A stretch of 32,731 nucleotides of DNA from Deltaproteobacteria bacterium RBG_16_54_11 (lineage in GTDB: Bacteria > Desulfobacterota > B13-G15 > RBG-16-54-18), in contig MGQS01000032.1 in NCBI GenBank assembly GCA_001797905.1, positions 1 to 32,731 on the forward strand. The letters run 5' to 3'. The notes under the pieces are model-generated. The model saw only the letters and a list, made by a program, of their open reading frames with translations, was not told where the DNA came from and did not search any database. Position numbers and translations under genes: made by a program. This document shows, one piece after another, positions 3,211-15,439 of the stretch (positions within the stretch are counted from its first letter, which is position 1; each line of letters begins with the position of its first letter).

Positions 3211-5838
3211 GTGGAATATTCGGCTGCGCAGCTTAAAACATCTAGACAGCAACTTATTACGCTGTTTACGGACGGTTTGAATACAAAATCCTTCCCCGAG
3301 GAAAATACAGCCCTCATAGATCAGTATTTTCAGGATAGTTTGCCGGAAAGCCACGTGGGGAGGACATTGCTGCAGCAGGGCATCCCCTTTGCTTTTATCG
3401 CGTTGGGAGGATATGGCCGAAGAGAACTATGCCTCCACTCTGATATCGACACGCTCTTGTTGTTCGGGAAAAAGGTTCCGTCCCAGGCAAAGACCCTGGT
3501 GCAGGAGATACTTTTCCCCCTCTGGGATCTCGGCCTTGATTTAGGATATGGGACTCGCACCATCAAGGATTGCCTGAGGATTGCAAAAATAGATTTTGAG
3601 GTCCTTACGTCGTTACTCGATGCACGTTTCATTGGAGGAGAGTATCCACTCTATCTCGATCTTATTGAAAAGCTTTACAAGAAAGTCGTAACTAAAAAAG
3701 CGCGCGACCTGCACCGGTGGTTGGCCGAACAAGACAAAAAACGACTGGAGACTTTTGGCGACTCAAGTTATCTCCTTGAGCCTAACCTCAAAGAGGGAAT
3801 TGGCGGCCTGAGAGATTACCACCATATGCTGTGGCTGGCCAAGGCATCTTTTGGCCCCCGGGAAACCCATGAGCAAGCGTTTCGCGCAAGACTATCGTAT
3901 CAAGAATATCAGGACTTGAGACAGCACGTGAGCTTCCTCTTGAATATAAGAAACCATCTACACCTCCGGTCACTTCGTAAGAATGACCGTTTGACATTCG
4001 AAGATCAGGAAGAAATCGCCAACAGGCTTGGATTACGAGACAAAAAAACATCACTCGCCGCAGAGCAATTTAACGAGCTGGTGCATGCCACCATGGCTGC
4101 TCTTAAATCCCTGTCCCGCTCCTTCATCGGCGGCCTTTTTGCGACGAAGAAGAAGCGCTCGAAGATAAGGCAGATGCCCCTGGTTCCCCGAGGCCTTGTT
4201 GTTGATGGAGGAGAACTCTGTTTTGATACAGTCCGTACCATCATAAAAAATCCTTCTTTATTAATGATCATTTTTGAGCACAGCGCTCTCCTTGGTTACG
4301 CCCTTTCTTTGGAGGCAAGGAGAATAATCCGCGAGTTTTTATACCTCGTGGATGATTCCTTCCGCCGATCAAAAACCATTATCAATTCTTTTATAAAGAT
4401 TGTGACGCAATCGAACTGCGCGTTTGAAACGTTGAGCCAAATGATGGAAATTGGGTTTCTCGATAGCTTCATTCCCGAATTTGGGCGGATACACAATAGG
4501 GTTGAGTTTGATGCCTATCATATCTATCCCGTTGGAATACATTCTCTACAGACGATTCGGTACCTTAAAAGTTTAACAGAGGAGAAAGATATCCTGCTCA
4601 GAGATCTCTTTGTAGAACTGCAGCATCCCGAACGGCTCTTCCTGGCAGGCCTTTTTCATGACATCGGGAAGATCGGTTCAGACCATGCACGCAGAGGGAC
4701 GAAGATTACAAAAAATATCCTGAAGCGGTTTGGACTAACTGATGACGCAATTGAGGATATTTGCTTTCTTGTACGCTCCCACCTGCTTCTGGCGGAAACG
4801 GCAACCCGGAGAGACTTAAACGATGAGAAGGTAATCGTTCAATGTGCCCGTATGATCGGTAGCCTGGAGAGACTGAAGCTTCTGTACCTGCTTACCTGGG
4901 CTGATTCTCGGGCTACCGGTCCAAAAGCATGGAACGACTGGATCGCCAACTTGATTAGTGAACTCTTCTTTAAAGTCCTCCATATCATGGAGAGTAAAGA
5001 ATTGGCCACGCAGGACGCTTTATCTCGTGTTGAGCACGTCAAAGCTGAAGTGCACAAGAAAGTTGGCCCCATTATAGAGAGGCAGGATCTTGAAAACTCT
5101 TTCGAGCTTATGCCCCCCCGTTATCTGCTCAATACACATCCCCGGAAAATTGTTCAACATCTGGGCATGGCAGAAAGCTTGAAAGCAAAAAAGCAAGCTA
5201 ACGAGACTAAATCCGGAGGCCATGCGGGGGATGAGGTTTTCATCTTTGAATCCAGAGAGGACAAAAAAGGAAATTGTTGGGAGATAACAATTGTAGCCAT
5301 AGATAGACCTGGTTTGTTTGCCAACATGGCCGGCGTTCTCGCCCTTAATGCCATTAACATACTTTCTGCCGACATATACACGTGGCGAGATGGAACTGCC
5401 GTTGATGTCCTGCGCACGACCAATCCGCTTGACGGCCTGTTCGTACAAGAGAAATGGGCCAAGGGCAAAGAGGATCTTAAAAACGTTCTCGCCGGCAGAT
5501 TATCTCTCGAATCCTCCGTCGGTAATGAAGAAACACCTCGTAGTCCAACAGGCTTAAAAAAGCTAGCACGAAAGCCGACCGTGATCGTAGATAACGAATC
5601 ATCAGATTTCTTTACGATAATTGAAGTCTATTCCCACGACCATGTCGTGCTTCTCTATCGTATTACTCATACACTGTTTGACCTCGGCCTGGACATTCAT
5701 AGCGCCAGAATTGCCGCCGCTGCAGACCAAGTCGTGGACGTCTTCTACGTGCGAGACCTGGAGGGTCAGAAGATTGAAGATGTCGGGAGGGTAAAAGAGA
5801 TAAAACGGATCCTGCTCAAGCAGCTAAAACCCCTATAA
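3211..5838 (+). CDS. glnD: [Protein-PII] uridylyltransferase / uridylyl-removing enzyme GlnD
   Basis: 875 aa. Nucleotidyltransferase motif GGYGRRELCLHSDIDTLLLF, HD domain (..LAGLFHDIGK..) and two C-terminal ACT-like segments (ITIVAIDRPGLFANMAGVLA.., TIIEVYSHDHVVLLYRITHTLF..). GTG start; the exact start is not certain. Confidence 0.9.
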   Translation: MEYSAAQLKTSRQQLITLFTDGLNTKSFPEENTALIDQYFQDSLPESHVGRTLLQQGIPFAFIALGGYGRRELCLHSDIDTLLLFGKKVPSQAKTLVQEILFPLWDLGLDLGYGTRTIKDCLRIAKIDFEVLTSLLDARFIGGEYPLYLDLIEKLYKKVVTKKARDLHRWLAEQDKKRLETFGDSSYLLEPNLKEGIGGLRDYHHMLWLAKASFGPRETHEQAFRARLSYQEYQDLRQHVSFLLNIRNHLHLRSLRKNDRLTFEDQEEIANRLGLRDKKTSLAAEQFNELVHATMAALKSLSRSFIGGLFATKKKRSKIRQMPLVPRGLVVDGGELCFDTVRTIIKNPSLLMIIFEHSALLGYALSLEARRIIREFLYLVDDSFRRSKTIINSFIKIVTQSNCAFETLSQMMEIGFLDSFIPEFGRIHNRVEFDAYHIYPVGIHSLQTIRYLKSLTEEKDILLRDLFVELQHPERLFLAGLFHDIGKIGSDHARRGTKITKNILKRFGLTDDAIEDICFLVRSHLLLAETATRRDLNDEKVIVQCARMIGSLERLKLLYLLTWADSRATGPKAWNDWIANLISELFFKVLHIMESKELATQDALSRVEHVKAEVHKKVGPIIERQDLENSFELMPPRYLLNTHPRKIVQHLGMAESLKAKKQANETKSGGHAGDEVFIFESREDKKGNCWEITIVAIDRPGLFANMAGVLALNAINILSADIYTWRDGTAVDVLRTTNPLDGLFVQEKWAKGKEDLKNVLAGRLSLESSVGNEETPRSPTGLKKLARKPTVIVDNESSDFFTIIEVYSHDHVVLLYRITHTLFDLGLDIHSARIAAAADQVVDVFYVRDLEGQKIEDVGRVKEIKRILLKQLKPL

Positions 5839-5911: not shown

Positions 5912-8560
5912 TCAGCCCTCTGCCTCCCACTCTTCGTTCATCTTCAAGCCGCTGCTTGTAAGGACCGATACTTTAGCGGCGCTGATGGTACGGTAGATGT
6001 CCCGGGGCTCCATCTTCTTCCCGTCAACCATCAAAAGGTGGTCATCGATGGAGATACCGAAGAGTCGCTCGTTTTCCTGAAGAAAGGGAAGGATGAGCTG
6101 CCAGTCGCGGTCCGTAAAAGGAGAGATCATGCCGCCGTTGAGCTGCTCCGGAACGATCTTTTTATGGGGATCACGAACGTAGATGGCTCCGCCGGAGGCA
6201 AGGGAAAAGAGGTTTGATCCCAGGTAGGGCGTCGCCAGGGGGGTCACCTTGCCATCATGGTCAAAGGTCAACCCGTTAAGGACAACAAACCCGCCGCCAT
6301 TATGGGGGTCTCCGGCCATAAAGGACTCTGCGAGAAAATCAAGGGCCGTGCCGTTGATAACAGCCTTCGGTTTGCCCACGGCATTGATAAAGGGGCGGCC
6401 TGCTGCGTTTCCCAGCACATACACCTCGCCGCCTTTTGCGCCATACATAAAGGTTTGGCCCACATCGCCGTAGACGACGAGCTTGCCTGACTTCATGATC
6501 TGCCCAAGTTGATCCTGAGCATTGCCGTGGACATAGATCTCGAGACCGTCTATGCCGGATGCGAGATAGTCCCCTGTGGAGCCATAGGCATCGATGCGAA
6601 CGCCTCTCGTATCGGGACCCAGACCGCAGCCCAGGAAGCGCTGCCCCCGCTGGCCAAAGCAAACGAACCGTCTCCAGCCCAGCTGATAGGCCTCAGATAT
6701 GAGGCCGGCAAAAGAATCTGCACCTTCCGAGGGAAACTGGCTGGCATCACAAACGAGCACCTTTTCAGCCCCTTCGGGTGCACGGAGCGCCTTGCGGCTT
6801 TCGAAATCGATCCGGCGGCCATCCAGCACGGCTCCGGTATCGTTGATCATGGGAACCCCCTTGAAGATCAAATCGAGCGTACCAGAGACCATCTGGAGGA
6901 CACTGCGGCGCCTCTTGCTCCCCAGAGGGTAGCGCTGGGTGAGGAGGAGCGTGAGCAAGCCGATCACCGGCTCCGTCAGCCCGTCTTCTGCGGAACGGCT
7001 CAGCAAGAGAGCGAGCAAGCTGTTGATATCGGCATAGTCCCACGTATGGAAGTCCCTCTTCACAGTGGTGAAGAGTTCCTTTGCATTCTGCTGAGACAAC
7101 TCCTTCACTATGCCCCTCAGGGTATCTCCGTGGGTGGTTTGCCGGGGCAACTGCGTCCGGGCATCGAGAGGTACCTGGTGTGCGGGCACATCGATGACCC
7201 GGCCGAACTTATCAGTACAGGTAAGGTTCATCAGGCCAGGAGAAGACTTTTTTACGGTAAAGATGAAGGCCCCTCCATCGGTATAGCTTCCGCCGCGGGC
7301 ATTCCAGTAATAATCGGCAACGGTGCCGAATCTGGGGTCCTCCTTTGCGAGGCTCTCAAGGGTGGCATCGATGGCCTGTTTTTCCGAACAGATGAGGCCG
7401 ATCTCGACCTCTCCTTTCTGGAGCGCAAAGACCTGGGGCCTCAGCATGGACGTATCGGTAATGCCGATCAGCTGGAATTGCTTATTCCTCACATCGGTGC
7501 GGGCGATGATGAAGAACCAGGGGCCGTCAGGAGAGCCGTGGATATGTGTTGTCTGGATCTGCCGGTAGATGCGCTGCTTCTCCTCGGGGAGGTGATCAAA
7601 GTCCATCTCTACCGTAGGGGCGAGGGCTTCGATGACATATTCGAGGGGGTAGCCGTAGACCCTGCTGAGGAGGTCCACGATCTGGACAGAGACCTCCGTG
7701 TCGGTAAGAAAAAGGGGATAGATATTGCGCTGGCGCAGGTATTGAGAAACCGAATAGTAATTGGCAAAATCGCCGTTGTGAACGAGGGCCTCATCGAGAC
7801 CGATGAAAGGATGGGCGCCCCCGGGATGCCAGACACGGCCCTTGGTAGGATACCGCTGGTGGGCAATCCAGATATGGGCATCGAAATTCTCCAGTTTATA
7901 ATACTGGGCTACCTGTTCCGCATAGCCCACGATCTTGAGGATCATCATGTTGCGGCCATGGGAAAGGACAAAGGCCTTCTTTTCTCCCAGGGCGCTGTAC
8001 AGAGCAAGGTTGAGCTGGTAGGTATTCTGGTAGATAAACTCTTCTTCTGCCTTATCAAGCGGGAGTATCTCCAGGTGGCGCTCCCTGCAAAAGGCAGCGA
8101 GGGCTTCGGGCTTTACGCGGACAAAATAGCGTTTTACCGCAGGAGGTTTTACTTCCAGTCCGGGAACATCCCGGTAATCATCGATGGTCTCAAGAAAGGC
8201 CTCGTGGTCAACCCGGAAGTGGGGTCTGATGAAACGCGCTTCCATCTCGGGGAGGACCGCATCATCGAGCAGGGCCACCTGGAGGAGAAAATCCTCATCA
8301 AGGGTCTTCTGGTCTACCCCCATCTTTGCCGGCGTAAGGCCGACGGCGGCAAGGCCTCCGCCTTTCCCGTTGCCGCGATTGTGCATCTGTACCGAAGGCG
8401 CAAAGATATGTTTCCCACTCACGGGTATGCTGCATGCAAAACCCGTTACGCCGCAGCCGCCTTCATCAACCTTCATATCCGCACGCCTTACGAGCCTTTC
8501 CGCTTCCCGGAACGGCCGCCGTGCATCTATGATTGCCTGTGCTATCCTTTGTTGCTCCAT
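5912..8560 (-). CDS. Split glutamate synthase subunit: class-II (Ntn) glutamine amidotransferase domain fused to the C-terminal GXGXG beta-helix domain
   Basis: The N-terminal part has GGCGVTGF.., HQRYPTKGRVWHPGGAHPF and HNGDFANY. The C-terminal part has GXGXG-type repeats (..YGSTGDYLASGIDGLEIYVHGNAQDQLG..VVYGDVGQTFMYGAKGGEVYVLGNAAGR..). The start is uncertain: M1 at 8560 or M29 at 8476, just before the putative catalytic Cys. Confidence 0.8.
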   Translation of the reverse strand: MEQQRIAQAIIDARRPFREAERLVRRADMKVDEGGCGVTGFACSIPVSGKHIFAPSVQMHNRGNGKGGGLAAVGLTPAKMGVDQKTLDEDFLLQVALLDDAVLPEMEARFIRPHFRVDHEAFLETIDDYRDVPGLEVKPPAVKRYFVRVKPEALAAFCRERHLEILPLDKAEEEFIYQNTYQLNLALYSALGEKKAFVLSHGRNMMILKIVGYAEQVAQYYKLENFDAHIWIAHQRYPTKGRVWHPGGAHPFIGLDEALVHNGDFANYYSVSQYLRQRNIYPLFLTDTEVSVQIVDLLSRVYGYPLEYVIEALAPTVEMDFDHLPEEKQRIYRQIQTTHIHGSPDGPWFFIIARTDVRNKQFQLIGITDTSMLRPQVFALQKGEVEIGLICSEKQAIDATLESLAKEDPRFGTVADYYWNARGGSYTDGGAFIFTVKKSSPGLMNLTCTDKFGRVIDVPAHQVPLDARTQLPRQTTHGDTLRGIVKELSQQNAKELFTTVKRDFHTWDYADINSLLALLLSRSAEDGLTEPVIGLLTLLLTQRYPLGSKRRRSVLQMVSGTLDLIFKGVPMINDTGAVLDGRRIDFESRKALRAPEGAEKVLVCDASQFPSEGADSFAGLISEAYQLGWRRFVCFGQRGQRFLGCGLGPDTRGVRIDAYGSTGDYLASGIDGLEIYVHGNAQDQLGQIMKSGKLVVYGDVGQTFMYGAKGGEVYVLGNAAGRPFINAVGKPKAVINGTALDFLAESFMAGDPHNGGGFVVLNGLTFDHDGKVTPLATPYLGSNLFSLASGGAIYVRDPHKKIVPEQLNGGMISPFTDRDWQLILPFLQENERLFGISIDDHLLMVDGKKMEPRDIYRTISAAKVSVLTSSGLKMNEEWEAEG

Positions 8561-8623
8561 GCTTGCTTATCCCGATGCGCAAAATCCTCTATGTTGTTTC
8601 CATTTCTGCATCTGTTATAGGCA

Positions 8624-10141
8624 TCAATTAAGCTCTCCCTCGACCTCTTCGGGCTTTATATAATCCAGATGCGCCAGGAGATCAAAGCGCCCAACAAGCT
8701 CTGTAACGCTCCTCATGCCCAGGTGCTTGAGGATGTCGGTAAGCTGATGCTGCCATGCCAGATACATATTAATGATACGCTGCGTGGCCCACTCGATCTC
8801 CATAAGCTTCGTCAGCGCAGGATCGGTCGTGGCGATGCCGCGGGCACAGCCGCGGCCCGATTCGCAGTGATGACAGCGGATACACTCCAAGGCCACCAAA
8901 TCGGCGGTGCCAAGGCAGACCCCATCGGCCCCCATGGCAATGATCTTGGCCATATCATAGGCCGTGCGGATGCCGCCGCTGGCAATGATGGTGATCTTAT
9001 CCCGAATCCCTTCAGCCTGGAGAAATGTATGTACCTTTGGGATGGCGTACTCAATAGGCATGGCGATATTCTTTTTCGCAATGTCCGGTGCAGCCCCTGT
9101 CCCGCCGTAACTGCCGTCCAGCTGCACGATATGCGCCCCCGCATAAAAACTTCCCACGGCTACCATGTCCACATCGGTGGGTGTCGACACCTTGACTGCC
9201 ACAAGGGCCTTATGGTTTATCTCCTTGATCCAGTCCACATGCTTTTTGTGGTCCTCCACGGAATAGACGCTGTGAAAAGGAAAGGGTGAAAAAAGGGCGC
9301 TCCCCGAAATTGCTTCGCGCATGGCCGCAACTGCCGGGGTTACCTTGTCGCCGAGGAGGTGGCCTCCGAGACCCGGCTTCGCCCCTTGGGCGTATTTGAA
9401 CTCCACGATACGAACGCGTTTTATCGTCTCTTCTCTCACGCCGAATAAGCCAGTGGCGACCTGGGTAATCACGTGGTCGTCATAGGGGATAAGCTCTTCA
9501 GGGTACCCTCCCTCGCCGGTACAGCAGAAGGTGCCGAGTGCTTGAGCTGCCCGCACCCGCGCGAGCATGGTGACAATACTGACGGAACCAAAGGACATAC
9601 CGCCGAGATAGAAGGGCAAGGGGATGGAAACCTTGGGCCGGCTGTCTCCCGATCGATTGAGTTCGATGGCCGTGGAGATTTCCATATCCGGTATCTCTTT
9701 GCTGCCTTTTTTCGGAAAAATGAAGCGGATCTTGTCAAACCCTCCGCCTGCATCACCGATCTTATAATTGAGTCCCTGATAGGGAACCTGGCCGGTTTCT
9801 GCCATATGCCAGGCGCTGGCAAGAAGGTCCGCGGTCCAGCGTTTATCACCGAGGCATTCAAATGACGGGTTAAGCTGGAGGGAGATGGCTTGAACAGGGC
9901 ATCTGGAGACACAGTAAAACGCATTCTCGCAGCAAGAGAACCCGAGGCAAAGGTGTTCCGCAATGACCTTGGGCCGCCTTGCTCCCGCCTTATAAACCCC
10001 ATAGGGACAGAGTGTTATGCAGAGCCCGCAATTGTTGCAGGCGCCGGTGATGGTAATCCGGTGCTTGCCGAGGGCATGGCGGAAGCGGCTCGGCACTTTC
10101 TTTGCCTTCGGATAGATACCTGTAACTTCTTGAAACGACAT
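8624..10141 (-). CDS. Archaeal-type glutamate synthase FMN subunit (GltB domain 2) with an N-terminal 2x[4Fe-4S] ferredoxin-like domain
   Basis: Cys clusters CNNCGLCITLCP and ..CVSRCP. FMN/substrate motifs GGMSFGSVS, KYAQGAKPGLGGHLLGDKV and IASGGIRTAYDMAKIIAMGADGV. The start lies 3 nt after the stop of the upstream gene. Confidence 0.85.
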   Translation of the reverse strand: MSFQEVTGIYPKAKKVPSRFRHALGKHRITITGACNNCGLCITLCPYGVYKAGARRPKVIAEHLCLGFSCCENAFYCVSRCPVQAISLQLNPSFECLGDKRWTADLLASAWHMAETGQVPYQGLNYKIGDAGGGFDKIRFIFPKKGSKEIPDMEISTAIELNRSGDSRPKVSIPLPFYLGGMSFGSVSIVTMLARVRAAQALGTFCCTGEGGYPEELIPYDDHVITQVATGLFGVREETIKRVRIVEFKYAQGAKPGLGGHLLGDKVTPAVAAMREAISGSALFSPFPFHSVYSVEDHKKHVDWIKEINHKALVAVKVSTPTDVDMVAVGSFYAGAHIVQLDGSYGGTGAAPDIAKKNIAMPIEYAIPKVHTFLQAEGIRDKITIIASGGIRTAYDMAKIIAMGADGVCLGTADLVALECIRCHHCESGRGCARGIATTDPALTKLMEIEWATQRIINMYLAWQHQLTDILKHLGMRSVTELVGRFDLLAHLDYIKPEEVEGELN

Positions 10142-10144
10142 GAG

Positions 10145-11527
10145 CTAAACCCTCTTCCCCATGGGTGCAAAGACCTCTTTTTCGAGGTCTTCAAAGAACA
10201 TGGCCCGGCCCATCTCGCCCCGCAACCTTCGCGCCTCGCGGATGCCCATGGCACCGAGGACCTCAAGAAGCTGATTATGCCACGCAGCCATCAGGTTTTT
10301 GATCCGCCCGGCGCCCCATGCCGGATCGACCCCCTCAAGCTCCACCGGACAGGCCACGCCTTCCTTGCAGCGGCGGCAAACCCTGCACTCCATAGCCACA
10401 AGAAGCGGAATGTCGACACCAAGCGCATCGGCTCCGCAGAGGATGATCTTTGCCATATGTTCGGCCATGGCGATCCCCCCTGAGGCAATCAGGGTCACCT
10501 CATCTCTCAAGCCCTTTTCGACCAAACTTCCATGTATCTCCCTCATCCGTTCTTTGATAAAGAGCGGATCTTCTCCTTTTTCCAAGCCATATTCATTAGC
10601 TACAAGATGGAATACCTCGGCACCCTCTTGGGTAAGCCATATCACGCGCTCTGATGCAGTGGGATTCAATTCCATCCTGATAAAGACGATTGCCTTCGGA
10701 TTTTTCTCTTTGAGCAGTCTCTGCATCTCCATGACATGATCGCCGTCAGGGATTTCGATAAGAGAAAGAGTCTTGAGAAGTTCATCAGTAAGATCGTTCA
10801 CAGCGCCATCGACCCAGAGAACCACATTGGAAAGATGTTCTTCGATGGCGGCATTCATCTCGGACTGCCGTACGACAGCAAAGGTGCCGAGTGCTCGCGC
10901 GGCCTCAAGAAAGGCCAGGGTAATCTGCCTGCGGGGCGGCGACCAGGGCAGAATGTCGAATATAATCGGCAGGGGTATCTCCACGAGAGGCGGCACCGTA
11001 GTAGTAATCTTCCCTCCGGCATCGAATTCCAGGGCCATGACCTTTCGCCCCAAATCGACGGTGGTGCTGATATATTCACGCCCGTGGATGCCATCCCGCG
11101 TGGGTCGCACGATCTCCGACATATCGGTCCACATGGCGTCAAAACCGGGACCTGAAAAGGGACCACCGTAACCGGCCCCCGACACGGGGATCCGCCCGCT
11201 TTCAGCCTGAGACCAGAGCACAGAAATAATCTCAGGCGTCCAGTAATGATCTCCCAGCGCTTTATACTGAGGGTTCAACCCCTTCTGGATGAGCTTATTG
11301 GGGCAACCCTGTACACACCTGAAACAGTCTTTGCAGGCAGTGTCCAGCGAATCAAGCATCTGACGCGCCTCAAGGCCTCGCTTTTCGTATACCTGATAGA
11401 CACAATCCTTCTTCACGCAACGGGGACATTTGAGGCACCCCTCTTCCCATGCGATAACGCCGGATCGCGTGATCGCCTGAAATCGGTTGGGTGCCTGGGC
11501 GGTTTTTATATGATATTTAGGGGGCAT
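10145..11527 (-). CDS. Glutamate-synthase-related Fe-S protein (ferredoxin-like N-terminus plus a divergent GltB-type barrel lacking the QGAKPG loop)
   Basis: CLKCPRCVKKDC and CKDCFRCVQGCP clusters. The C-terminal part (IASGGIAMAEHMAKIILCGADALGV..CRVCRRCKEGVACP..) parallels the neighbouring FMN subunit. I could not find GGMSFG or QGAKPGxGG equivalents. Confidence 0.7.
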   Translation of the reverse strand: MPPKYHIKTAQAPNRFQAITRSGVIAWEEGCLKCPRCVKKDCVYQVYEKRGLEARQMLDSLDTACKDCFRCVQGCPNKLIQKGLNPQYKALGDHYWTPEIISVLWSQAESGRIPVSGAGYGGPFSGPGFDAMWTDMSEIVRPTRDGIHGREYISTTVDLGRKVMALEFDAGGKITTTVPPLVEIPLPIIFDILPWSPPRRQITLAFLEAARALGTFAVVRQSEMNAAIEEHLSNVVLWVDGAVNDLTDELLKTLSLIEIPDGDHVMEMQRLLKEKNPKAIVFIRMELNPTASERVIWLTQEGAEVFHLVANEYGLEKGEDPLFIKERMREIHGSLVEKGLRDEVTLIASGGIAMAEHMAKIILCGADALGVDIPLLVAMECRVCRRCKEGVACPVELEGVDPAWGAGRIKNLMAAWHNQLLEVLGAMGIREARRLRGEMGRAMFFEDLEKEVFAPMGKRV

Positions 11528-11540
11528 TTCTATATCCCTT

Positions 11541-12464
11541 TTATACGGTGGGGCGCGGGGCTAGCCCGGCTTCTTCGACGAGCTGCGGCACCACGTCTTC
11601 CCACTCAATGGCCATGATGTGGACACCGTGAATACCCTTCATCCCTTTGAGGGCTTGAATGGTTTCCACGGCAATCCGGATCCCTTCCTCACGCTGCTTG
11701 TCTGCTGGTACGGATTTCATCCGTTTAATAATCTCATCGGGCACATCCATACCGGCCACCTGTTTGCTCATATATTCCGCCATACGGGTTGATTTCAAAG
11801 GAGTGACACCGCCCAGGATGTAGACCTTCTCAGGGATGCCGCAATCACCGGCCTGTTCCATCCACTCCTTAAAACGGACGATGTTGTAGACGCACTGTGT
11901 CTGGATAAACTCGGCGCCGGCAGCGACCTTTTTCTCCAGCCGGAGCACCCGGTAGGAAAAGGGATCTGCAAAGGGGTTCTCAACGGCGCCGACAAAGAGA
12001 TGGGGCGGTTCGGTAAGTCTTTCCCCGCCGAGGATCACACCTTTGTCTCTCATCTGACGGACAAGCTGTATAAGCTGCATGGAGTCTATATCGAATACGC
12101 CTTTGGCCTGGGGCTGGTTCCCGAAGGACTGGTGGTCGCCGCTCAAGCAAAGAATGTTGCGGATGCCCAGGGCGGATGCACCGAGTATATCGGACTGAAG
12201 CGCAATACGGTTCCGGTCGCGGGTTACCATTTGAAGTACCGGATCGAGACCGTCCTTCAAGAGGAGTGCGCATGCGGCGAGACTGGAAAGCCGAACAACG
12301 CCTGTCTGATTATCGGTGACATTGACGCTGTCGACAAAAGCCTTCAGCATCTTTCCTTTTTTTTGTATGGCCTTCGGATCGGCCCCCTTCGGCGGACCGC
12401 ACTCTGCGGTAACGGCGAAGTGGCCTCCCTGCAAGACGTTTTTCAGACGGCTTTCTTCTTTCAT
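11541..12464 (-). CDS. metF: 5,10-methylenetetrahydrofolate reductase MetF
   Basis: 307 aa with MTHFR-fold sequence (..FAVTAECGPPKGADP..VNVTDNQTG..LCLSGDH..FVGAVENPFADP..FIQTQCVYN..). Its ATG overlaps the metV stop as ATGA. Confidence 0.85.
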   Translation of the reverse strand: MKEESRLKNVLQGGHFAVTAECGPPKGADPKAIQKKGKMLKAFVDSVNVTDNQTGVVRLSSLAACALLLKDGLDPVLQMVTRDRNRIALQSDILGASALGIRNILCLSGDHQSFGNQPQAKGVFDIDSMQLIQLVRQMRDKGVILGGERLTEPPHLFVGAVENPFADPFSYRVLRLEKKVAAGAEFIQTQCVYNIVRFKEWMEQAGDCGIPEKVYILGGVTPLKSTRMAEYMSKQVAGMDVPDEIIKRMKSVPADKQREEGIRIAVETIQALKGMKGIHGVHIMAIEWEDVVPQLVEEAGLAPRPTV

Positions 12465-13129
12465 ATCTTCTGATCCTCCCTGACGATTTTCCGGGGGCCC
12501 CTGCCCTGCTGTTTGGACCAGTCTGCCGGTGGATAGACCTTGTCCAGGAGGTTCATTCTGCCGCTTTCTTCAAGGCGGGTAATGATCAGCTGCCAGGCGC
12601 AGGGTGTATCGGGATCAACTTCGCACTTGCCGTCCTGAGAACCGCCGCACGGACCGTTAAAAAGCCCCTTGGCGCAACCGGTTATTGGACAGACAGCGGC
12701 AAAAAAGCCGAGCTTGCAGTCGCCGCACCCGCGGCAATTTTCAACCCAGAGACCTGCTTCTTTTGTTTCGCCGACGAAGGTGGTGTTCAACGCAGGAACG
12801 ATGATCGCCCTGGGAAAGACCTCTGCCACGGCCTGAACGCCTGCGCCGCACCCGAGAGAAAGCACGACATCGTATTGATCGATAAACTCCGTAAGCTGGT
12901 CGATAAACTCGTAGACGCACTGGCGGTCCAGTGTCATCTCCTTGATTTCAAGATCGCGCCCCTCTGTGCGGGCATCCATCCTCAGGGCTGAGGCAAGAAG
13001 CCCTACTTCCTTTTCGCCGCCCGCCGCACACTCGGCGACACAACTTCCGCAGCCGACCACAAGAACCTTCCTGTAGGGTGCAATCATCTCCTTGATTTCA
13101 GACAAAGGCTTTCTTTCAGCAGTAATCAT
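12461..13129 (-). CDS. metV: MetV, Cys-rich small subunit of MetFV-type methylene-THF reductase
   Basis: 222 aa. VVGCGSCVAEC.., ..CRGCGDCKLGFFAAVCPITGCAKGLFNGPCGGSQDGKCEV.. match the MTHFR C-terminal (MetV) domain. RBS AAGGAG upstream. Confidence 0.8.
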   Translation of the reverse strand: MITAERKPLSEIKEMIAPYRKVLVVGCGSCVAECAAGGEKEVGLLASALRMDARTEGRDLEIKEMTLDRQCVYEFIDQLTEFIDQYDVVLSLGCGAGVQAVAEVFPRAIIVPALNTTFVGETKEAGLWVENCRGCGDCKLGFFAAVCPITGCAKGLFNGPCGGSQDGKCEVDPDTPCAWQLIITRLEESGRMNLLDKVYPPADWSKQQGRGPRKIVREDQKI

Positions 13130-13141
13130 GCCCTCACTCCT

Positions 13142-13588
13142 TTATAGCTGTCTCTGTTGCCTTTCCTGTCCCGGAGCATCCACAGGCAAGGGGCCGACAA
13201 AAGCTTCCCGTGCGAGGAGCTCTTCTGCCAACTGAGCGATGGTCGTCGTCGTTCCGGCAAGTACATGGATGAGCTCCAGATGATCCTTTGCAAGGCCAAT
13301 CTCCTCAATAAGCCCCTGGGCATAGGCAAGACGCTTCTTCGCACGGATGTTTCCTTCCCGGTAGCGGCATGCCCCCTCGGCACAGGTGACAACATAAACC
13401 TTATCGGCGCCGGACTCCAGCGCACGCAGGAGGTGCAGGGGCTCGATGCGCCCGCTGCATGGCAAAGGGAAAAATCTTATCTGTGAGCCGAGCTCTTTTT
13501 CAAGGGGACGCCGGTGGGCATCCTGGTCAGCATCGATTCGCTGACAGAAGAATATGGTTATCTTCAGTCCCGCACTCTTTTGATCCAT
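13142..13588 (-). CDS. mvhD: MvhD-like iron-sulfur protein (methyl-viologen-reducing hydrogenase delta subunit family)
   Basis: ..ITIFFCQ..PLPCSGRIEPLHLLRALESGADKVYVVTCAEGACRYREGN.. is the MvhD/FlpD signature. I prefer ATG 13588 (RBS GGAGAGG 5 nt upstream) because the track's start at 13624 lies inside the terminator U-tract. Confidence 0.8.
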   Translation of the reverse strand: MDQKSAGLKITIFFCQRIDADQDAHRRPLEKELGSQIRFFPLPCSGRIEPLHLLRALESGADKVYVVTCAEGACRYREGNIRAKKRLAYAQGLIEEIGLAKDHLELIHVLAGTTTTIAQLAEELLAREAFVGPLPVDAPGQERQQRQL

Positions 13589-13620
13589 AGATGCCTCTCC
13601 TTTATTCGGCCTTTGTGTCG

Positions 13621-13651
13621 ACAAAAAAAGGGCGCCTTGTAAGACGCCCTT
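13621..13651 (-). terminator. Intrinsic terminator (also a candidate attenuator) about 35 nt upstream of mvhD
   Basis: Minus strand reads AAGGGCGUC-uuacaa-GGCGCCCUU followed by UUUUUGU. The stem is 9 bp with one G.U pair. Confidence 0.75.
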
Positions 13652-13662
13652 GTCAATCCGCT

Positions 13663-13678
13663 GACACTTCCTTGTGCC
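13663..13678 (-). promoter_or_regulatory. Leader hairpin P1, GGCAC-AAGGAA-GUGUC (hexaloop with A1 and G4)
   Basis: 5-bp stem with one G.U pair. It starts about 8 nt after the -10 element. A paralogous hairpin lies at 15452-15467. Confidence 0.5.
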
Positions 13679-13686
13679 TTTTTATA

Positions 13687-13715
13687 ATAGTATGCCTTTA
13701 CAAACCGTCTGTCAA
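13687..13715 (-). promoter_or_regulatory. Sigma-70-type promoter TTGACA-17nt-TACTAT
   Basis: Minus strand: TTGACA at 13715-13710 and TACTAT at 13692-13687. It sits between the stop of the 529-aa gene and the terminator. Confidence 0.5.
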
Positions 13716-13740: not shown

Positions 13741-15330
13741 TTATTCGGCCAGGATCTTTTCCGCCTCTTGCCGATAGGCATCCATCACATAGGCGATGCC
13801 GGAGATCTTTGCCGCCTCCTCGGTCAGGGCCATGAGGTCCTTGCGGGAGACGAGGGAGAGCTTAAAGTTCCTGCTCCCCGCCATCAACTGCTGGAGCCCG
13901 ACCCTGATCTTCTGGCAGAAGGTATAGACACCCATCGCGCCGAGGGGTATATCCTTCATCCGATTCCCATACTTCCCTTTCAGCTCTTCATAGGTGACGA
14001 AGATCTCCTCGACGCTCTTTCCGTATTTGGCAACGCCCTTCGGCAGGTCATTCTCCGCCAGCCACTGTCCGATATGCTTCCCCACCATGCCGGGGATCAT
14101 GAGGGCCCGACCCATGCAGACCGCCTTGACATAGGGGCTCCCCATGGCGATGGCCTTGAACACCCCGTCTTCGCCCGAGAATCCACCGGCCATGGCGAGG
14201 TCAGGCACCCTGATCTTTCGCTTGGCGAGCTTCTCACAGAACTGATAGGCAAGGCAGTGGAGGTAGAACGACGGGATGCCCCACTCGTTCATCATCGGCC
14301 ACGGGCTCATCCCCGTGCCGCCGGGGGCGCCGTCGATGGTAAGGAGATCCAAGTGCGCCTCCGCCCCATACCGCAACGCCATGGCGAGCTCCACGGCGGA
14401 GTAGGCGCCGGTCTTCAGGGTGATCCGCTTAAACCCGAGCTTGCGCAGCCTCTCGATCTCCTTCAGAAACCCATCCTTATCCACAAAACCCAGTCGAGAA
14501 TGCCGCTCGAATTCCTTGATCTCCCCTTCCTTGAAGGCCTTCTGGACCTCAGGGATGATGGGATCCGGGGTGACAATGTACCCCCGTTTTTTGAGCTCCA
14601 GGGCCCGCTCGATCTCTCTGACCTTGATCTCACCGCCGATGCACTTGGCGCCCTGCCCCCACTTGAGCTCAATGGTATCGAGCTTGTGCTTGTTCAGGAC
14701 GTATTCCGCCACGCCAAAGCGCGTATCCTCGACATTCATTTGCACGAGGATCTCACCAAAACCCTCGTGGAACCTCCGGTATGTCTCGATCCGGCGATCC
14801 ATCTCGGGCGAGTTCTTGACCTTCCCGTTGTTGTCCAGCTCCAACTTGGGGTCGATACCGCAGACGTTCTCGCCGCACACGAGGGTGATCCCCGAGATAG
14901 CGGCGCCGATGGCAAAGTGCTCCCAGTTCTTCTGGGCGATGAAGGTGGAACCCAATGCGCCGGTAAAGACAGGCACGCGCATCCGGACCTTTTTATCCCA
15001 CCCATACTCCGTCTCGGTATCGACAACAGGAAAAATGGCCGTGTCAGGGCCCGGTTTCACCCCATCGGGCAATCCTTCTGCGCCGACGGCGTACCCCTGG
15101 ATGTTCAGGTGGGAATAATCCACCGGATATTCCTTGTCCGCCCCTGCCGTGATCTCCCCGAATGGCCCCGGATAGATCACCTCCCTGCCCCGGAATGAGG
15201 CGAGCCACACCTCACAACCACCCTTACACCCGTCAAGACAGTCGGTGCAGATACCGGACATGGGAACGACCGTTCTCGAACGGTTGAACGTCCCCGTTGC
15301 CGCACTGGCATTTGGCCTTCTTAAATTCAT
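13741..15330 (-). CDS. FMN-binding glutamate-synthase-family protein (stand-alone GltB domain-2 homologue)
   Basis: ..LKWGQGAKCIGGEIKV.., ..TIDGAPGGTGMSPWP.., ..AMAGGFSGEDGVFKAIAMGS... N-terminal Cys cluster CTDCLDGCKGGCEVW. I prefer ATG 15330 (GAGGAGG 7 nt upstream) over the track's 15456, whose extension runs through the terminator. Confidence 0.8.
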   Translation of the reverse strand: MNLRRPNASAATGTFNRSRTVVPMSGICTDCLDGCKGGCEVWLASFRGREVIYPGPFGEITAGADKEYPVDYSHLNIQGYAVGAEGLPDGVKPGPDTAIFPVVDTETEYGWDKKVRMRVPVFTGALGSTFIAQKNWEHFAIGAAISGITLVCGENVCGIDPKLELDNNGKVKNSPEMDRRIETYRRFHEGFGEILVQMNVEDTRFGVAEYVLNKHKLDTIELKWGQGAKCIGGEIKVREIERALELKKRGYIVTPDPIIPEVQKAFKEGEIKEFERHSRLGFVDKDGFLKEIERLRKLGFKRITLKTGAYSAVELAMALRYGAEAHLDLLTIDGAPGGTGMSPWPMMNEWGIPSFYLHCLAYQFCEKLAKRKIRVPDLAMAGGFSGEDGVFKAIAMGSPYVKAVCMGRALMIPGMVGKHIGQWLAENDLPKGVAKYGKSVEEIFVTYEELKGKYGNRMKDIPLGAMGVYTFCQKIRVGLQQLMAGSRNFKLSLVSRKDLMALTEEAAKISGIAYVMDAYRQEAEKILAE

Positions 15331-15410: not shown

Positions 15411-15439
15411 CAAAAAAATGGCGTCCCTTTGGACGCCAT
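15411..15439 (-). terminator. Intrinsic terminator (also a candidate attenuator) about 80 nt upstream of the 529-aa gene
   Basis: Minus strand reads AUGGCGUCC-aaag-GGACGCCAU followed by U7 (GUC). The 9-bp stem is perfect. Confidence 0.75.

What the first reader, a model, noticed from the sequence alone, without database searches (positions are those of the whole stretch)
5912..13588. mvhD-metV-metF in one operon with split glutamate-synthase genes and no Hdr: a possible new redox module
Six minus-strand genes are packed with overlaps or gaps of 3-63 nt. In order they are mvhD, metV, metF (ATGA overlap), a 460-aa Fe-S/GltB-like protein, a 505-aa ferredoxin plus FMN GltB subunit, and an 882-aa amidotransferase plus GXGXG fusion. 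By established knowledge, MetFV-type methylene-THF reductases of acetogens and sulfate reducers pair with MvhD and HdrABC, or with an RnfC-like protein. MvhD is an electron-transfer adaptor, normally to HdrA. This window has no HdrA, HdrB or HdrC. The only flavin and Fe-S partners are three glutamate-synthase-type proteins, each carrying ferredoxin-like Cys clusters or an FMN barrel. My inference has two alternatives. Either the GltB-like FMN/Fe-S proteins replace HdrA as the flavin module of the MTHFR, or MvhD wires a shared low-potential electron input to both methylene-THF reduction and glutamate synthesis, coupling C1 and nitrogen assimilation. I do not know of a described MetFV complex of this composition.
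Basis: partly seen in the sequence, partly recalled or inferred. Interest (0 to 1): 0.8.

Follow-up and report, generated by a model that had tools for sequence, protein, structure and literature searches.

The report
Glutamate synthase wired to folate reductase
The six genes are real and stay together in dozens of uncultured anaerobes; they most likely encode a nitrogen-regulated glutamate synthase that takes electrons through a small iron-sulfur adaptor from a methyl-folate enzyme, a pairing I found described nowhere.

Summary
Window 5912-13588 (minus strand) encodes MvhD, MetV, MetF, a 460-aa Fe-S/GltS-like protein, a 505-aa ferredoxin+FMN GltS synthase subunit and an 882-aa glutaminase+GXGXG fusion, with gaps of -4 to 63 nt and no Hdr in the window.

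Of 72 species-level loci with enough upstream DNA, 65 keep this order. Four hold the same six genes permuted, with a different MetVF lineage.

The invariant core is MvhD+460+505+882. It is a catalytically intact split GOGAT that sits in nitrogen-assimilation neighbourhoods. In the window a GnfR/ANTAR-type antitermination leader precedes it.

MetVF is one of several plug-in redox modules:
- HdrC-HdrB-HdrL follows the core in some lineages.
- A GlcD-like FAD dehydrogenase is fused to the 460-aa subunit in another.
- A close relative carries a metVF deletion with the core intact.

My best reading is a GOGAT whose electron-input module here is MetVF-MvhD, so that methyl-THF oxidation drives glutamate synthesis. 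The main rival is one shared ferredoxin or Hdr input feeding both enzymes. No experiment exists and I found no published description. I rate it a new variant of a known kind.

The parts
13142..13588 (-). mvhD: small [2Fe-2S]-type adaptor (FlpD/MvhD family), 148 aa
   Evidence: Pfam FlpD 1.3e-22 and NCBIfam VhuD/HdrA2 C-terminal matches. Present next to the GltS genes in 72 of 72 loci with enough upstream DNA, including loci that lack MetVF. The Cys motifs PCSGR and C..G.C are conserved.
12461..13129 (-). metV: Fe-S/Zn subunit of MetFV-type methylene-THF reductase, 222 aa
   Evidence: Pfam DUF5981 9e-35. The Cys-rich motifs are conserved in 71 relatives. MetV binds two [4Fe-4S] clusters in C. 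ljungdahlii (PMC8515935).
11541..12464 (-). metF: flavin-containing methylene-THF reductase catalytic subunit, 307 aa; ATGA overlap with metV
   Evidence: Pfam MTHFR 1.5e-36. Aligns over its full length to Thermus MTHFR. The motifs E in TAECGPPKG, D in LSGDH and Q in IQTQ are conserved. By my recall these are the equivalents of E. coli Glu28, Asp120 and Gln183.
10145..11527 (-). 460-aa subunit with a 2x[4Fe-4S] ferredoxin domain, a GltS-like TIM barrel lacking the synthase active-site motif, and a 4-Cys cluster motif. Proposed non-catalytic electron-transfer and docking subunit.
   Evidence: Pfam Fer4_10 plus Glu_synthase (C-terminal part only) plus Glu_syn_central. Matches both the central domain and the FMN-domain C-terminus of B. 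subtilis GltA. The AF2 barrel (confident only for residues ~190-380) has solved GltS structures as top hits. The ends are conserved and the barrel core is variable; there is no AQGAKPG motif; C31/34/37/42, C65/68/71/75 and C381/384/387/393 are conserved. It is fused to the 505-like subunit, or to a GlcD-like dehydrogenase, in other lineages.
8624..10141 (-). 505-aa GltS synthase subunit: N-terminal 2x[4Fe-4S] ferredoxin domain plus FMN/2-oxoglutarate domain with a 4-Cys cluster
   Evidence: Pfam Glu_synthase 6e-93. PDB GltS FMN domains match at 5e-50 over residues 173-491. KYAQGAKPGLGGHLLG and MREA are invariant in 71 relatives. By my recall they contain the equivalents of Lys972 and Arg992 of Synechocystis Fd-GltS.
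5912..8560 (-). 882-aa fusion of an Ntn (class II) glutaminase domain with the GXGXG beta-helix domain of GltS
   Evidence: Pfam GXGXG 1.8e-15 and GATase_6 (weak). Alignment to the GlmS glutaminase domain keeps the R of AHQRYPT, the N-G of HNG and the D of TDTEV. By my recall these match GlmS R73, N98-G99 and D123. The putative catalytic Cys in EGGCGVTGF (C36, behind a ~35-aa propeptide) is at least 95% conserved in 60 relatives.
13620..13715 (-). Leader of the operon: sigma-70-like promoter (13715-13687), hairpin P1 GGCAC[AAGGAA]GUGUC (13678-13663), hairpin P2 GAC[AAGGGC]GUC (13654-13643) that overlaps the 5' half of an intrinsic terminator (13651-13620, U7). An ANTAR/GnfR-type antitermination target.
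   Evidence: The hexaloops carry A1 and G4 and the second hairpin overlaps the terminator, as defined for ANTAR targets (PMC3369931). P2 is nearly identical to the Geobacter GnfR site CAGGCAANGGCGCC found in the nifH, glnK and amtB leaders (PMC2995071). No Rfam family matches.
13741..15330 (-). Upstream gene for a 529-aa GltS-related FMN protein without a ferredoxin domain. It is a separate unit with the same leader type and probably belongs to the same regulon, not to the conserved six-gene set.
   Evidence: Pfam Glu_synthase 5e-17. Its true start is ATG 15330, by homology with L005. A homolog lies near the module in L005, L006 and L089, and on the opposite strand in L014, L017, L029, L064 and L065.
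15412..15503 (-). Second copy of the antitermination leader, upstream of the 529-aa gene: TTGACA at 15503-15498, P1 GGCAC[AAAGGG]GUGUC at 15467-15452, terminator GGCGUCC-AAA-GGGACGCC plus U7 at 15437-15412
1494..5838 (+). amt (1494-2738), glnK/PII (2772-3110) and glnD (3211-5838): nitrogen-assimilation context, convergent with the operon
   Evidence: Pfam Ammonium_transp 1e-132, P-II 6e-33 and GlnD_UR_UTase 6e-32. GlnA, Amt, PII, GlnD and GlnE are the recurrent same-strand upstream neighbours of the module in 7-25 other loci.

Best explanation
The six genes encode one nitrogen-limitation-induced enzyme system: a split, archaeal-type glutamate synthase (GOGAT) whose electron-input side is built from MvhD and a MetVF methylene-THF reductase.

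Shown by sequence and comparative data:
- The 882-aa protein is a glutaminase fused to the GXGXG domain.
- The 505-aa protein is the FMN/2-oxoglutarate synthase subunit with its own ferredoxin domain.
- The 460-aa protein is a non-catalytic GltS-barrel paralog that carries three Fe-S cluster motifs.
- MvhD always accompanies these three.
- The set lies in nitrogen-assimilation neighbourhoods behind a GnfR/ANTAR-type attenuator.

Inferred:
- Glutamine-derived ammonia and 2-oxoglutarate form 2-iminoglutarate on the 505-aa subunit.
- The electrons that reduce it arrive along an Fe-S wire: MetF flavin, MetV 2x[4Fe-4S], MvhD [2Fe-2S], 460-aa clusters, 505-aa clusters, FMN.

In this Hdr-less version the most likely net reaction is: 5-methyl-THF + 2-oxoglutarate + glutamine gives 5,10-methylene-THF + 2 glutamate. 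This uses 'low-grade' (about -200 mV) electrons and spares NAD(P)H and ferredoxin when nitrogen is limiting.

Across the family the same GOGAT core carries other donor modules: HdrC-HdrB-HdrL with a GltD-like NAD(P)H domain, a fused GlcD-like FAD dehydrogenase, or none in cis.

Approximate likelihoods:
- Conserved nitrogen-regulated MvhD-GOGAT core: 0.9.
- MetVF electronically coupled to it in one complex: 0.65.
- Methyl-THF as the physiological donor: 0.4-0.45.
For: 1. Synteny. The order MvhD-MetV-MetF-460-505-882 holds in 65 of 72 species-level loci. These come from Desulfobacterota, Nitrospirota and two spirochaete-type MAGs, with differing flanks.
2. The order MvhD-460-505-882-MetV-MetF occurs in L070, L078, L079 and L080. 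There MetF is only 45-47% identical to the window's, against 64-72% in type A loci of equal GltS divergence. Its 74% relative lies in a Wood-Ljungdahl/Hdr cluster. This points to an independent recruitment of MetVF to the GOGAT operon.
3. L079 is flanked by transposase and defence genes, so the six genes move as a unit.
4. The catalytic motifs of the glutaminase, the synthase and MetF are intact and conserved.
5. None of the six proteins has an NAD(P)H-binding domain.
6. Same-strand upstream neighbours are GlnA (25 loci), Amt (24), PII (20), GlnD (10) and GlnE (7). No Wood-Ljungdahl genes recur.
7. The ANTAR/GnfR-type leader directly precedes mvhD, so metVF expression is tied to nitrogen status.
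8. Rosetta-stone fusions. 460+505 occur in one chain. A GlcD/D-LDH-like FAD dehydrogenase plus a 2x[4Fe-4S] domain is fused to the N-terminus of the 460-like subunit, and 505-like and 882-like genes follow with 4-nt overlaps and no MvhD or MetVF (L093). This shows that substrate-oxidising donor modules attach at this position.
9. HdrC overlaps the 882-like stop codon by 4 nt in L088. The HdrL that follows contains a GltD-like domain, the canonical GOGAT donor.
10. E0' of methylene/methyl-THF is -200 mV (PMC8515935). By my own estimate the GOGAT acceptor couple is roughly 140 mV more positive, so the proposed reaction is exergonic by about 25 kJ/mol.
Against: - There is no biochemical, transcript or structural evidence. 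A complex was not modelled, because no multimer prediction was available.
- The core occurs without MetVF (L084, L085, L087, L088, L089). A close relative (L006) has an internal metVF deletion (MetV residue ~16 to MetF residue ~271) while the core is intact. The GOGAT can therefore obtain electrons another way, probably through its ferredoxin-like domains.
- In the Moorella-type complex, MvhD-MetVF is read as an acceptor arm of Hdr. In eight loci of the Syntrophorhabdaceae group, MetVF, the GltS genes and HdrCB-HdrL are all in one cluster. That fits 'Hdr feeds both' as well as my model.
- Purified MetFV of C. ljungdahlii takes electrons from reduced ferredoxin.
- A methyl-THF donor needs a methyl-THF source independent of this enzyme. 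I could not check the genomes for a Wood-Ljungdahl pathway, methyltransferases or a second MTHFR.
- Nitrogen-assimilation flux is small, so this cannot be a main catabolic sink.
Confidence: 0.45

Rival explanations
1. Shared-input, two-acceptor complex. Low-potential electrons enter through MvhD or the ferredoxin-like domains. Their source is reduced ferredoxin, or an HdrL-HdrBC module encoded elsewhere that oxidises NAD(P)H and may bifurcate. The electrons go to two exergonic acceptors, methylene-THF (MetVF) and 2-iminoglutarate (GltS). With Hdr present, the exergonic reductions could drive ferredoxin reduction, for example for nitrogenase.
For: - hdrC-hdrB-hdrL lies directly downstream of the 882-like gene in L011, L013, L016, L018, L025, L030, L052 and L068, which also have MetVF, and in L084 and L088, which do not.
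- The same HdrCB-HdrL-MvhD module precedes MetVF in a Wood-Ljungdahl cluster (L090), as in the Moorella 6S-type MTHFR.
- Hdr need not be co-localised with its partners (PMC6085437).
- MetFV accepts electrons from reduced ferredoxin.
- The 460-aa and 505-aa subunits both have ferredoxin-like entry domains.
Against: - Only 7 of 54 type A/B loci have Hdr in cis.
- It gives no reason why a second acceptor enzyme should be recruited twice, independently, into a nitrogen-regulated GOGAT operon.
- It gives no reason why a housekeeping or catabolic MTHFR should sit behind a nitrogen attenuator.
- The fused GlcD-like module at the equivalent position is a donor-type dehydrogenase.
Confidence: 0.27
2. 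The complex is primarily a new type of methylene-THF reductase in which GltB-like FMN/Fe-S proteins replace HdrA as the flavin module. The Glt-like proteins do not serve glutamate synthesis.
For: The mvhD-metV-metF cassette has the same order as in the Moorella hdrCBA-mvhD-metVF operon (L090). Here Glt-like genes stand where Hdr would be, and the window has no Hdr.
Against: - MvhD+460+505+882 exists without MetVF in several lineages and in the L006 deletion variant.
- The glutaminase Cys and glutamine-site residues, and the 2-oxoglutarate/FMN motif, are invariant.
- The neighbourhood and the leader are of nitrogen-assimilation type, and no Wood-Ljungdahl genes recur.
- The Nitrospirota loci place a second, GltD-linked split GOGAT directly next to it, which suggests isoenzymes.
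Confidence: 0.06
3. Co-regulation only. MvhD-MetVF is a separate three-subunit MTHFR that merely shares an operon with an independent ferredoxin-dependent split GOGAT. There is no physical or electronic coupling.
For: - Operon membership alone does not prove a complex.
- The core works without MetVF in other lineages.
- 2S-type MetFV enzymes are autonomous (L091).
Against: - MvhD stays with the 460-aa gene when MetVF is absent or moved to the operon's end. It therefore belongs to the GltS side, yet in the known case it is also the MetVF connector.
- Gene content is kept through a permutation and through replacement by another MetVF lineage.
- Junctions are tight (13-nt gap, 4-nt overlap).
Confidence: 0.15
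4. The Glt-like trio is not a glutamine:2-oxoglutarate enzyme. It is an N-methylglutamate-synthase-like (MgsABC-type) or other amine-transferring enzyme that feeds C1 units to folate, with MetVF handling the resulting methylene-THF.
For: From my own knowledge, not tested here: MgsABC subunits are homologous to the same three GltS domains, and the N-methylglutamate pathway ends in methylene-THF. Amt and GS-like genes are also found near such clusters.
Against: - The best family matches of the 505-aa protein are bona fide GltS (NCBIfam glutamate synthase large subunit 1e-60, PDB 5e-50).
- PII, GlnD, GlnE, CarAB and NadE neighbours and the GnfR-type leader indicate ammonium assimilation.
- No N-methylglutamate dehydrogenase or GMAS-specific genes recur nearby.
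Confidence: 0.04

Closest known systems
Archaeal-type (split) glutamate synthase, with separate COG0067 glutaminase, COG0069 ferredoxin+FMN and COG0070 GXGXG proteins. This includes variants with GltD or FrhB-like donor modules (F420-dependent GltS, mentioned in PMC9012536).
   Same: - The same three catalytic and structural domains.
- The N-terminal 2x[4Fe-4S] domain on the FMN subunit.
- A 4-Cys cluster in place of the bacterial 3-Cys [3Fe-4S] motif.
- A modular electron-donor partner.
A canonical set (369 aa, 552 aa, and ~810 aa GXGXG+GltD) lies right next to the module in the Nitrospirota loci.
   Different: - The glutaminase and GXGXG domains are fused in one 882-aa chain.
- There is an extra, conserved 460-aa Fe-S barrel paralog.
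- MvhD is an obligatory companion.
- MetVF (or HdrCB-HdrL, or a fused GlcD-like dehydrogenase) stands in place of GltD or FrhB.
Moorella thermoacetica 6S-type MTHFR, HdrABC-MvhD-MetFV (Mock et al. 2014, as summarised in PMC8515935, PMC5736913 and PMC6085437)
   Same: - The same mvhD-metV-metF cassette and gene order.
- MvhD acts as connector between MetVF and a larger Fe-S/flavin partner.
- Relatives of the window's module carry hdrC-hdrB-hdrL in the same operon.
- A Desulfobacterales Wood-Ljungdahl cluster (L090) has hdrC-hdrB-hdrL-mvhD-metV-metF.
   Different: - There is no HdrA, HdrB or HdrC in the window or in most loci.
- The partner is a complete glutamate synthase.
- The context is nitrogen assimilation rather than the Wood-Ljungdahl pathway.
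- I propose the opposite direction of electron flow through MetVF.
2S-type MetFV MTHFR (Clostridium ljungdahlii, C. formicoaceticum), dependent on reduced ferredoxin (PMC8515935)
   Same: MetF flavin subunit plus MetV Fe-S subunit, with no NAD(P)H site.
   Different: The 2S enzymes are autonomous heterodimers encoded in Wood-Ljungdahl clusters. They have no MvhD and no Glt partners.
Bacterial NADPH-GltS alpha/beta (Azospirillum, B. subtilis GltAB; PDB 1EA0, 6S6S, 7MFM)
   Same: - The 505-aa protein is about 40% identical to the FMN domain.
- The 460-aa protein resembles the cofactor-less central domain in being a degenerate duplicate of the FMN barrel.
- The electron path runs from a partner flavoprotein through Fe-S clusters to FMN.
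   Different: - The alpha-subunit equivalents are split and permuted over three chains.
- The central-domain analogue carries Fe-S clusters.
- The beta subunit (GltD) is absent from the window.
GnfK/GnfR ANTAR antitermination of nitrogen genes in Geobacter sulfurreducens (PMC2995071) and the general ANTAR dual-hexaloop target (PMC3369931)
   Same: - Two short hairpins with hexaloops (A at position 1, G at position 4), the second overlapping an intrinsic terminator.
- The P2 sequence GACAAGGGCGUC, against the GnfR site CAGGCAAGGGCGCC.
   Different: - The element lies upstream of a GOGAT/MetVF operon, which the Geobacter paper does not report as a target.
- A sigma-70-like promoter precedes it rather than a sigma-54 one.
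- The regulator was not identified in the window.

Membership tests
Glutamate synthase (GOGAT), split/archaeal type | Ntn (class II) glutaminase domain with N-terminal catalytic Cys and glutamine-binding Arg, Asn-Gly and Asp | tested here: met
   C36 in EGGCGVTGF is at least 95% conserved. AHQRYPT, HNG and TDTEV align to the GlmS glutaminase domain; I assign them to GlmS R73, N98-G99 and D123 from recall. Cleavage of the propeptide is inferred.
Glutamate synthase (GOGAT), split/archaeal type | FMN/2-oxoglutarate synthase domain (PF01645) with the AQGAKPG Lys and the downstream Arg | tested here: met
   The 505-aa protein scores Glu_synthase 6e-93 and about 40% identity to the Azospirillum GltS FMN domain. 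The motifs are invariant in 71 relatives.
Glutamate synthase (GOGAT), split/archaeal type | GXGXG beta-helix domain | tested here: met
   PF01493 1.8e-15, residues 640-812 of the 882-aa protein.
Glutamate synthase (GOGAT), split/archaeal type | Glutamine- and 2-oxoglutarate-dependent glutamate formation | not testable with these tools
   Needs an enzyme assay.
NAD(P)H-GOGAT (GltBD) | GltD beta subunit (Fer4_20 + Pyr_redox_2, NAD(P)H site) | tested here: not met
   No such domain in any window ORF. A GltD-like domain is present only inside the HdrL of relatives.
MetFV-type methylene-THF reductase | MetF (PF02219) with catalytic Glu, Asp and Gln, plus an adjacent MetV (PF12225) | tested here: met
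   metV and metF overlap by 4 nt.
6S-type MTHFR (HdrABC-MvhD-MetFV) | MvhD encoded next to MetVF | tested here: met
   FlpD 1.3e-22, 12 nt upstream of metV.
6S-type MTHFR (HdrABC-MvhD-MetFV) | HdrA, HdrB (CCG) and HdrC subunits | tested here: not met
   Absent from the 32.7-kb window. Present in cis in only 7 of 54 related loci. Copies elsewhere in the genome could not be checked.
ANTAR-regulated leader | Two tandem hairpins with hexaloops (A1, G4), the second mutually exclusive with an intrinsic terminator | tested here: met
   Window 13678-13620 and 15467-15412, plus 23 related loci. 98.5% of cells are paired, against 19-54% when slid. Covariation is modest (GC/GU/AU at two P1 pairs). Definition from PMC3369931.
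ANTAR-regulated leader | Binding by an ANTAR-domain regulator, with read-through under the inducing condition | not testable with these tools
   No ANTAR gene is in the window. This needs the genome and an experiment.
N-methylglutamate synthase (MgsABC) | Methylamine or gamma-glutamylmethylamide as substrate; co-occurrence with NMG dehydrogenase and GMAS | tested here: inconclusive
   No such neighbours recur and the best family matches are GltS. Substrate specificity cannot be read from sequence here.

The most novel reading that the evidence does not exclude
This would be a family of 'low-grade-electron' glutamate synthases. A conserved MvhD/460-aa Fe-S adaptor lets GOGAT draw electrons directly from donors at about -200 mV. 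In the window's type the donor is 5-methyl-THF through MetVF. In L093 it is a 2-hydroxy acid through a fused GlcD-like dehydrogenase. With HdrL-HdrBC attached, the strongly exergonic GOGAT step could serve as the driving branch of a flavin-based electron-bifurcating complex. That would be a direct redox link between C1/folate metabolism and nitrogen assimilation, induced under nitrogen limitation.
Probability: 0.4. Interest if true: 0.85.

Novelty: new variant of a known kind. Interest (0 to 1): 0.72.

Why it matters
GOGAT is the main entry of nitrogen into biomass. Its known electron donors are NAD(P)H, plant-type ferredoxin and, in some archaea, F420H2. This module is a conserved and widespread variant: 299 matching stretches in a one-genome-per-species collection, and 271 clusters (50% identity) at E <= 1e-30. 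Its partners are MvhD and a methylene-THF reductase.

If the proposed coupling is real, three things follow:
- Energy-limited anaerobes (syntrophs, sulfate reducers, Nitrospirota) pay for nitrogen assimilation with electrons that cannot reduce NAD+.
- Methyl-THF oxidation by MetFV enzymes gets a concrete acceptor. What accepts those electrons is a long-standing question in acetogen and sulfate-reducer bioenergetics.
- The list of modules that MvhD can connect grows.

All carriers found are uncultured MAGs, which probably explains why the module has gone unnoticed. The six genes are compact enough for heterologous expression, so the idea can be tested directly.

Tried and rejected
- Six literature searches found no paper linking MetVF or MvhD with GltB-type genes. 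Every co-mention concerned GltD/Nfn, or unrelated genes in the same genome.
- Rfam, both at gathering thresholds on the whole window and at relaxed E-values on the leader, found nothing.
- The AF2 model of the 460-aa protein was confident only for residues ~190-380 (mean pLDDT 59.6). It supports 'GltS-like barrel' and nothing about cofactor binding or the N-terminal half.
- I first considered the hairpin upstream of mvhD to be merely the terminator of the upstream gene. I rejected that because the promoter, P1, P2 and terminator are conserved together, the same architecture precedes the upstream gene itself, and P2 matches the GnfR site.
- I considered TGTCA-N-TGACA as a TnrA/GlnR-like DNA operator. 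I rejected that because the spacing varies from 3 to 11 nt.
- I looked for the leader upstream of amt in the window and found none.
- I looked for cultured carriers in two top-120 homolog lists and found only MAGs.
- I thought the class-I GATase upstream in 26 loci might be a folyl-polyglutamate hydrolase. Pfam gives GATase 1e-19 and only a weak Peptidase_C26 match, so I did not pursue it.

Full report

Yes. The minus strand of window 5912-13588 carries six ORFs:

| Gene | Coordinates | Pfam result |
|---|---|---|
| mvhD | 13142-13588 | FlpD, 1e-22 |
| metV | 12461-13129 | DUF5981, 9e-35 |
| metF | 11541-12464 | MTHFR, 1.5e-36 |
| 460-aa gene | 10145-11527 | Fer4 plus only the last third of Glu_synthase, weak Glu_syn_central |
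| 505-aa gene | 8624-10141 | Fer4 plus full Glu_synthase, 6e-93 |
| 882-aa gene | 5912-8560 | weak class II GATase plus GXGXG |

- The junctions are a 12-nt gap, a 4-nt overlap, and gaps of 13, 3 and 63 nt.
- The ATG at 13588 follows a ribosome-binding site and is the start conserved in relatives.
- No Hdr-type domain occurs anywhere in the window.
- No terminator-like site lies at any of the five gene junctions. Three minus-strand promoter-like sites fall inside genes, but the total count is no higher than chance.

- A seventh gene lies just upstream on the same strand. It encodes a 529-aa GltS-related FMN protein (13741-15330).
- amt-glnK-glnD (1494-5838, plus strand) converge on the operon's end.

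**2. Conservation**

The 460-aa protein is the most diagnostic component.
- It has more than 7,800 hits in the large protein set. Identity is 70-85% across Syntrophorhabdaceae and Nitrospirota.
- A scan of one genome per species found 299 encoding stretches, and 80 loci were fetched.
- tblastn of all window proteins against these loci shows MvhD in 72 of 72 loci with at least 2.6 kb upstream.
- The full order MvhD-MetV-MetF-460-505-882 (type A) holds in 65 of those 72.
- L070, L078, L079 and L080 have the order MvhD-460-505-882-MetV-MetF (type B).
- Flanks differ between loci. In L079 they are transposase and defence genes. The genes therefore travel as a unit.
- All carriers seen are MAGs. 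They come from Desulfobacterota (Syntrophorhabdales, Syntrophales, Desulfarculaceae, Desulfobacterales, Desulfatiglandales), Nitrospirota (Thermodesulfovibrionia, Dissulfurispiraceae), two spirochaete-type bins and Ca. Desantisbacteria.
- An exhaustive HMMER search finds 271 clusters (50% identity) at E <= 1e-30.

**3. What the three Glt-like proteins are**

The 505-aa protein is a bona fide synthase subunit.
- It is about 40% identical to the FMN domain of solved GltS structures (5e-50).
- The AQGAKPG and MREA motifs are invariant. From recall, these hold the equivalents of Lys972 and Arg992 of Synechocystis Fd-GltS.

The 882-aa protein has an intact glutaminase.
- The Cys in EGGCGVTGF sits behind a ~35-aa propeptide and is at least 95% conserved.
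- The Arg, Asn-Gly and Asp of the glutamine site align with the GlmS glutaminase domain.

The 460-aa protein is a paralog of the 505-aa protein, about 25% identical.
- It has lost the active-site motif, and its barrel core is variable.
- Its ferredoxin domain, a long conserved loop and a CxxCxxCx5CP cluster motif are invariant.
- It matches both the central domain and the FMN-domain C-terminus of GltA.
- The confident part of its AF2 model matches solved GltS structures best.

I read the 460-aa protein as a non-catalytic Fe-S scaffold. The three proteins together equal a GltS alpha subunit, split and permuted.

**4. The core is MvhD plus GOGAT, and MetVF is accessory**

More distant members lack MetVF.
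- L084 and L088: GlnA-...-MvhD-464-504-875-HdrC-HdrB-HdrL.
- L085 and L087: MvhD-459-48x-9xx only.
- L089: a nitrogen island with GDH, GlnA, NadE and CarA.

L006 is a close relative of the window (460-aa protein 83% identical). It has a deletion that joins MetV codon ~15 to MetF codon ~272, while mvhD and the three glt genes are intact.

Hdr is not always absent.
- hdrC-hdrB-hdrL follows the 882-like gene in 7 of 54 type A/B loci with enough downstream DNA.
- In L088, hdrC overlaps the 882-like stop codon by 4 nt.
- HdrL is an HdrA with an inserted GltD-like NAD(P)H domain.
- The same HdrCB-HdrL-MvhD module precedes MetVF inside a CODH/ACS cluster in a Desulfobacterales MAG (L090). The MetF there is 74% identical to type B MetF.
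- Type B MetF is only 45-47% identical to the window's. In type A loci of equal GltS divergence the figure is 64-72%.
- So MetVF seems to have been recruited to the GOGAT operon at least twice.

**5. Rosetta-stone fusions**

- Some members fuse the 460-like and 505-like proteins in one chain.
- Others carry a GlcD/D-lactate-dehydrogenase-like FAD domain plus a 2x[4Fe-4S] domain on the N-terminus of the 460-like part.
- In L093 that fusion is followed by 505-like and 882-like genes with 4-nt overlaps and no MvhD or MetVF. L092 shows the same start of the arrangement.
- A substrate-oxidising dehydrogenase therefore occupies the position that MvhD(-MetVF) holds in the window.

**6. Physiological context**

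Clustering the flanking ORFs of 78 loci gives these recurrent same-strand upstream neighbours:

| Neighbour | Loci |
|---|---|
| Class I GATase | 26 |
| GlnA | 25 |
| Amt | 24 |
| PII | 20 |
| GlnD | 10 |
| GlnE | 7 |

CarAB and NadE also recur. No Wood-Ljungdahl genes recur.

In the Nitrospirota loci a canonical split GOGAT with a GltD fusion lies immediately downstream.

The window has a conserved leader directly upstream of mvhD.
- It starts with a sigma-70-like promoter.
- Hairpin P1 is GGCAC[AAGGAA]GUGUC.
- Hairpin P2 is GAC[AAGGGC]GUC. Its 3' arm is part of an intrinsic terminator with a U7 tail.
- The same design precedes the upstream 529-aa gene and 23 related loci.
- Pairing holds in 98.5% of cells, against 19-54% when the partners are slid. 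Covariation is modest.

This is the published definition of an ANTAR target: dual hexaloops with A1 and G4, the second overlapping the terminator (PMC3369931). P2 nearly equals the Geobacter GnfR site CAGGCAANGGCGCC, which controls nifH, glnK and amtB under nitrogen limitation (PMC2995071). I infer that the whole operon, metVF included, is induced by nitrogen limitation.

**7. Mechanism**

Shown:
- A conserved MvhD-linked split GOGAT with intact catalytic motifs.
- MetF with its catalytic Glu, Asp and Gln motifs conserved.
- No NAD(P)H-binding domain in any of the six proteins.

Inferred: one Fe-S wire joins the MetF flavin to the GltS FMN. Its path is MetV (two [4Fe-4S] clusters), MvhD ([2Fe-2S]), the 460-aa clusters, then the 505-aa clusters.

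I favour 5-methyl-THF as the donor, for four reasons.
- Every other module found at this position is a donor: the GltD-like domain in HdrL, and the GlcD-like dehydrogenase.
- A nitrogen-regulated operon should carry genes that serve nitrogen assimilation.
- MetVF was recruited twice without Hdr.
- The six-gene set is then self-sufficient.

E0' of the folate couple is -200 mV. By my own estimate GOGAT with this donor is exergonic by about 25 kJ/mol.

The main rival is that ferredoxin, or an Hdr module in trans, feeds both MetVF and GltS. Three observations support it:
- the Moorella analogy;
- the loci of the Syntrophorhabdaceae group, which hold all three gene sets;
- the ferredoxin dependence of purified MetFV.

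The data cannot decide between the two.

**8. Known or new?**

The parts are known families. The combination is not among the MTHFR types listed in PMC8515935, which are the E. coli type and the 2S, 3S and 6S MetFV types. It is also not among the GOGAT types I know. Six full-text searches found no description. I classify it as a new variant of a known kind, supported by comparative genomics only.

Noticed in passing
window 13620-13715 (-) and 15412-15503 (-); also L004, L005, L006, L008, L011, L015, L020, L023, L024, L027, L028, L032, L033, L040, L050, L055, L059, L061, L062, L066, L067 upstream of mvhD: A conserved promoter, dual-hexaloop and terminator leader of ANTAR/GnfR type. No Rfam family matches it. 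The Nitrospirota loci have a different but also conserved hairpin-plus-U-run (AGCGTCTAT...ATAGACGCT) in the same place.
   Followed up: partly
window 13741-15330 (-): A 529-aa GltS-related FMN protein with a Cys-rich N-terminus (CTDCLDGCKGGCEVW) and no ferredoxin domain. It has its own copy of the antitermination leader. Homologs recur near the module in L005, L006 and L089, and divergently in L014, L017, L029, L064 and L065. Its function is unknown.
   Followed up: partly
L006:9832-9990: An internal deletion joins MetV residues 1-15 to MetF residues 272-307 in a close relative (RBG_16_54_18), while mvhD, 460, 505 and 882 are intact. It is either a natural metVF knockout or an assembly artefact.
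   Followed up: partly
L093:8001-15867 and L092:264-4690: A GlcD/D-LDH-like FAD dehydrogenase plus a 2x[4Fe-4S] domain is fused to the 460-like subunit. 505-like and 882-like genes follow, with no MvhD or MetVF. This may be a 2-hydroxy-acid-dependent GOGAT.
   Followed up: partly
L090:8832-9251: The MvhD homolog in a Desulfobacterales Wood-Ljungdahl/Hdr/MetVF cluster has an in-frame TGA (VAG*EEGEC). It is probably a selenocysteine, as in VhuD.
   Followed up: no
L016:7007-7816 and 25 other loci, 11-300 nt upstream of mvhD: A ~265-aa class I glutamine amidotransferase-like protein lies immediately upstream of mvhD on the same strand in 26 loci. In the window's lineage the 529-aa gene takes its place. 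Its role is unknown.
   Followed up: no
L029:6364-7653 (-), L079:18111-19415 (+) and 4 other loci: A KaiC-like ATPase + HTH_3 + Cupin_2 regulator recurs next to the module in six loci. It is a candidate dedicated regulator.
   Followed up: no
L002/L003/L010, L017, L031, L034, downstream of the 885-aa gene: In Nitrospirota a second, canonical split GOGAT follows the module directly. It consists of a 369-aa glutaminase, a 552-aa Fer4+FMN subunit and a ~810-aa GXGXG+GltD fusion. Two GOGAT isoenzymes therefore lie side by side.
   Followed up: partly
window 29000-31000: G+C drops to 0.46, against 0.55-0.62 in the flanks, and no ORF of 80 aa or more lies between 29647 and 31036. No Rfam match was found.
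   Followed up: no
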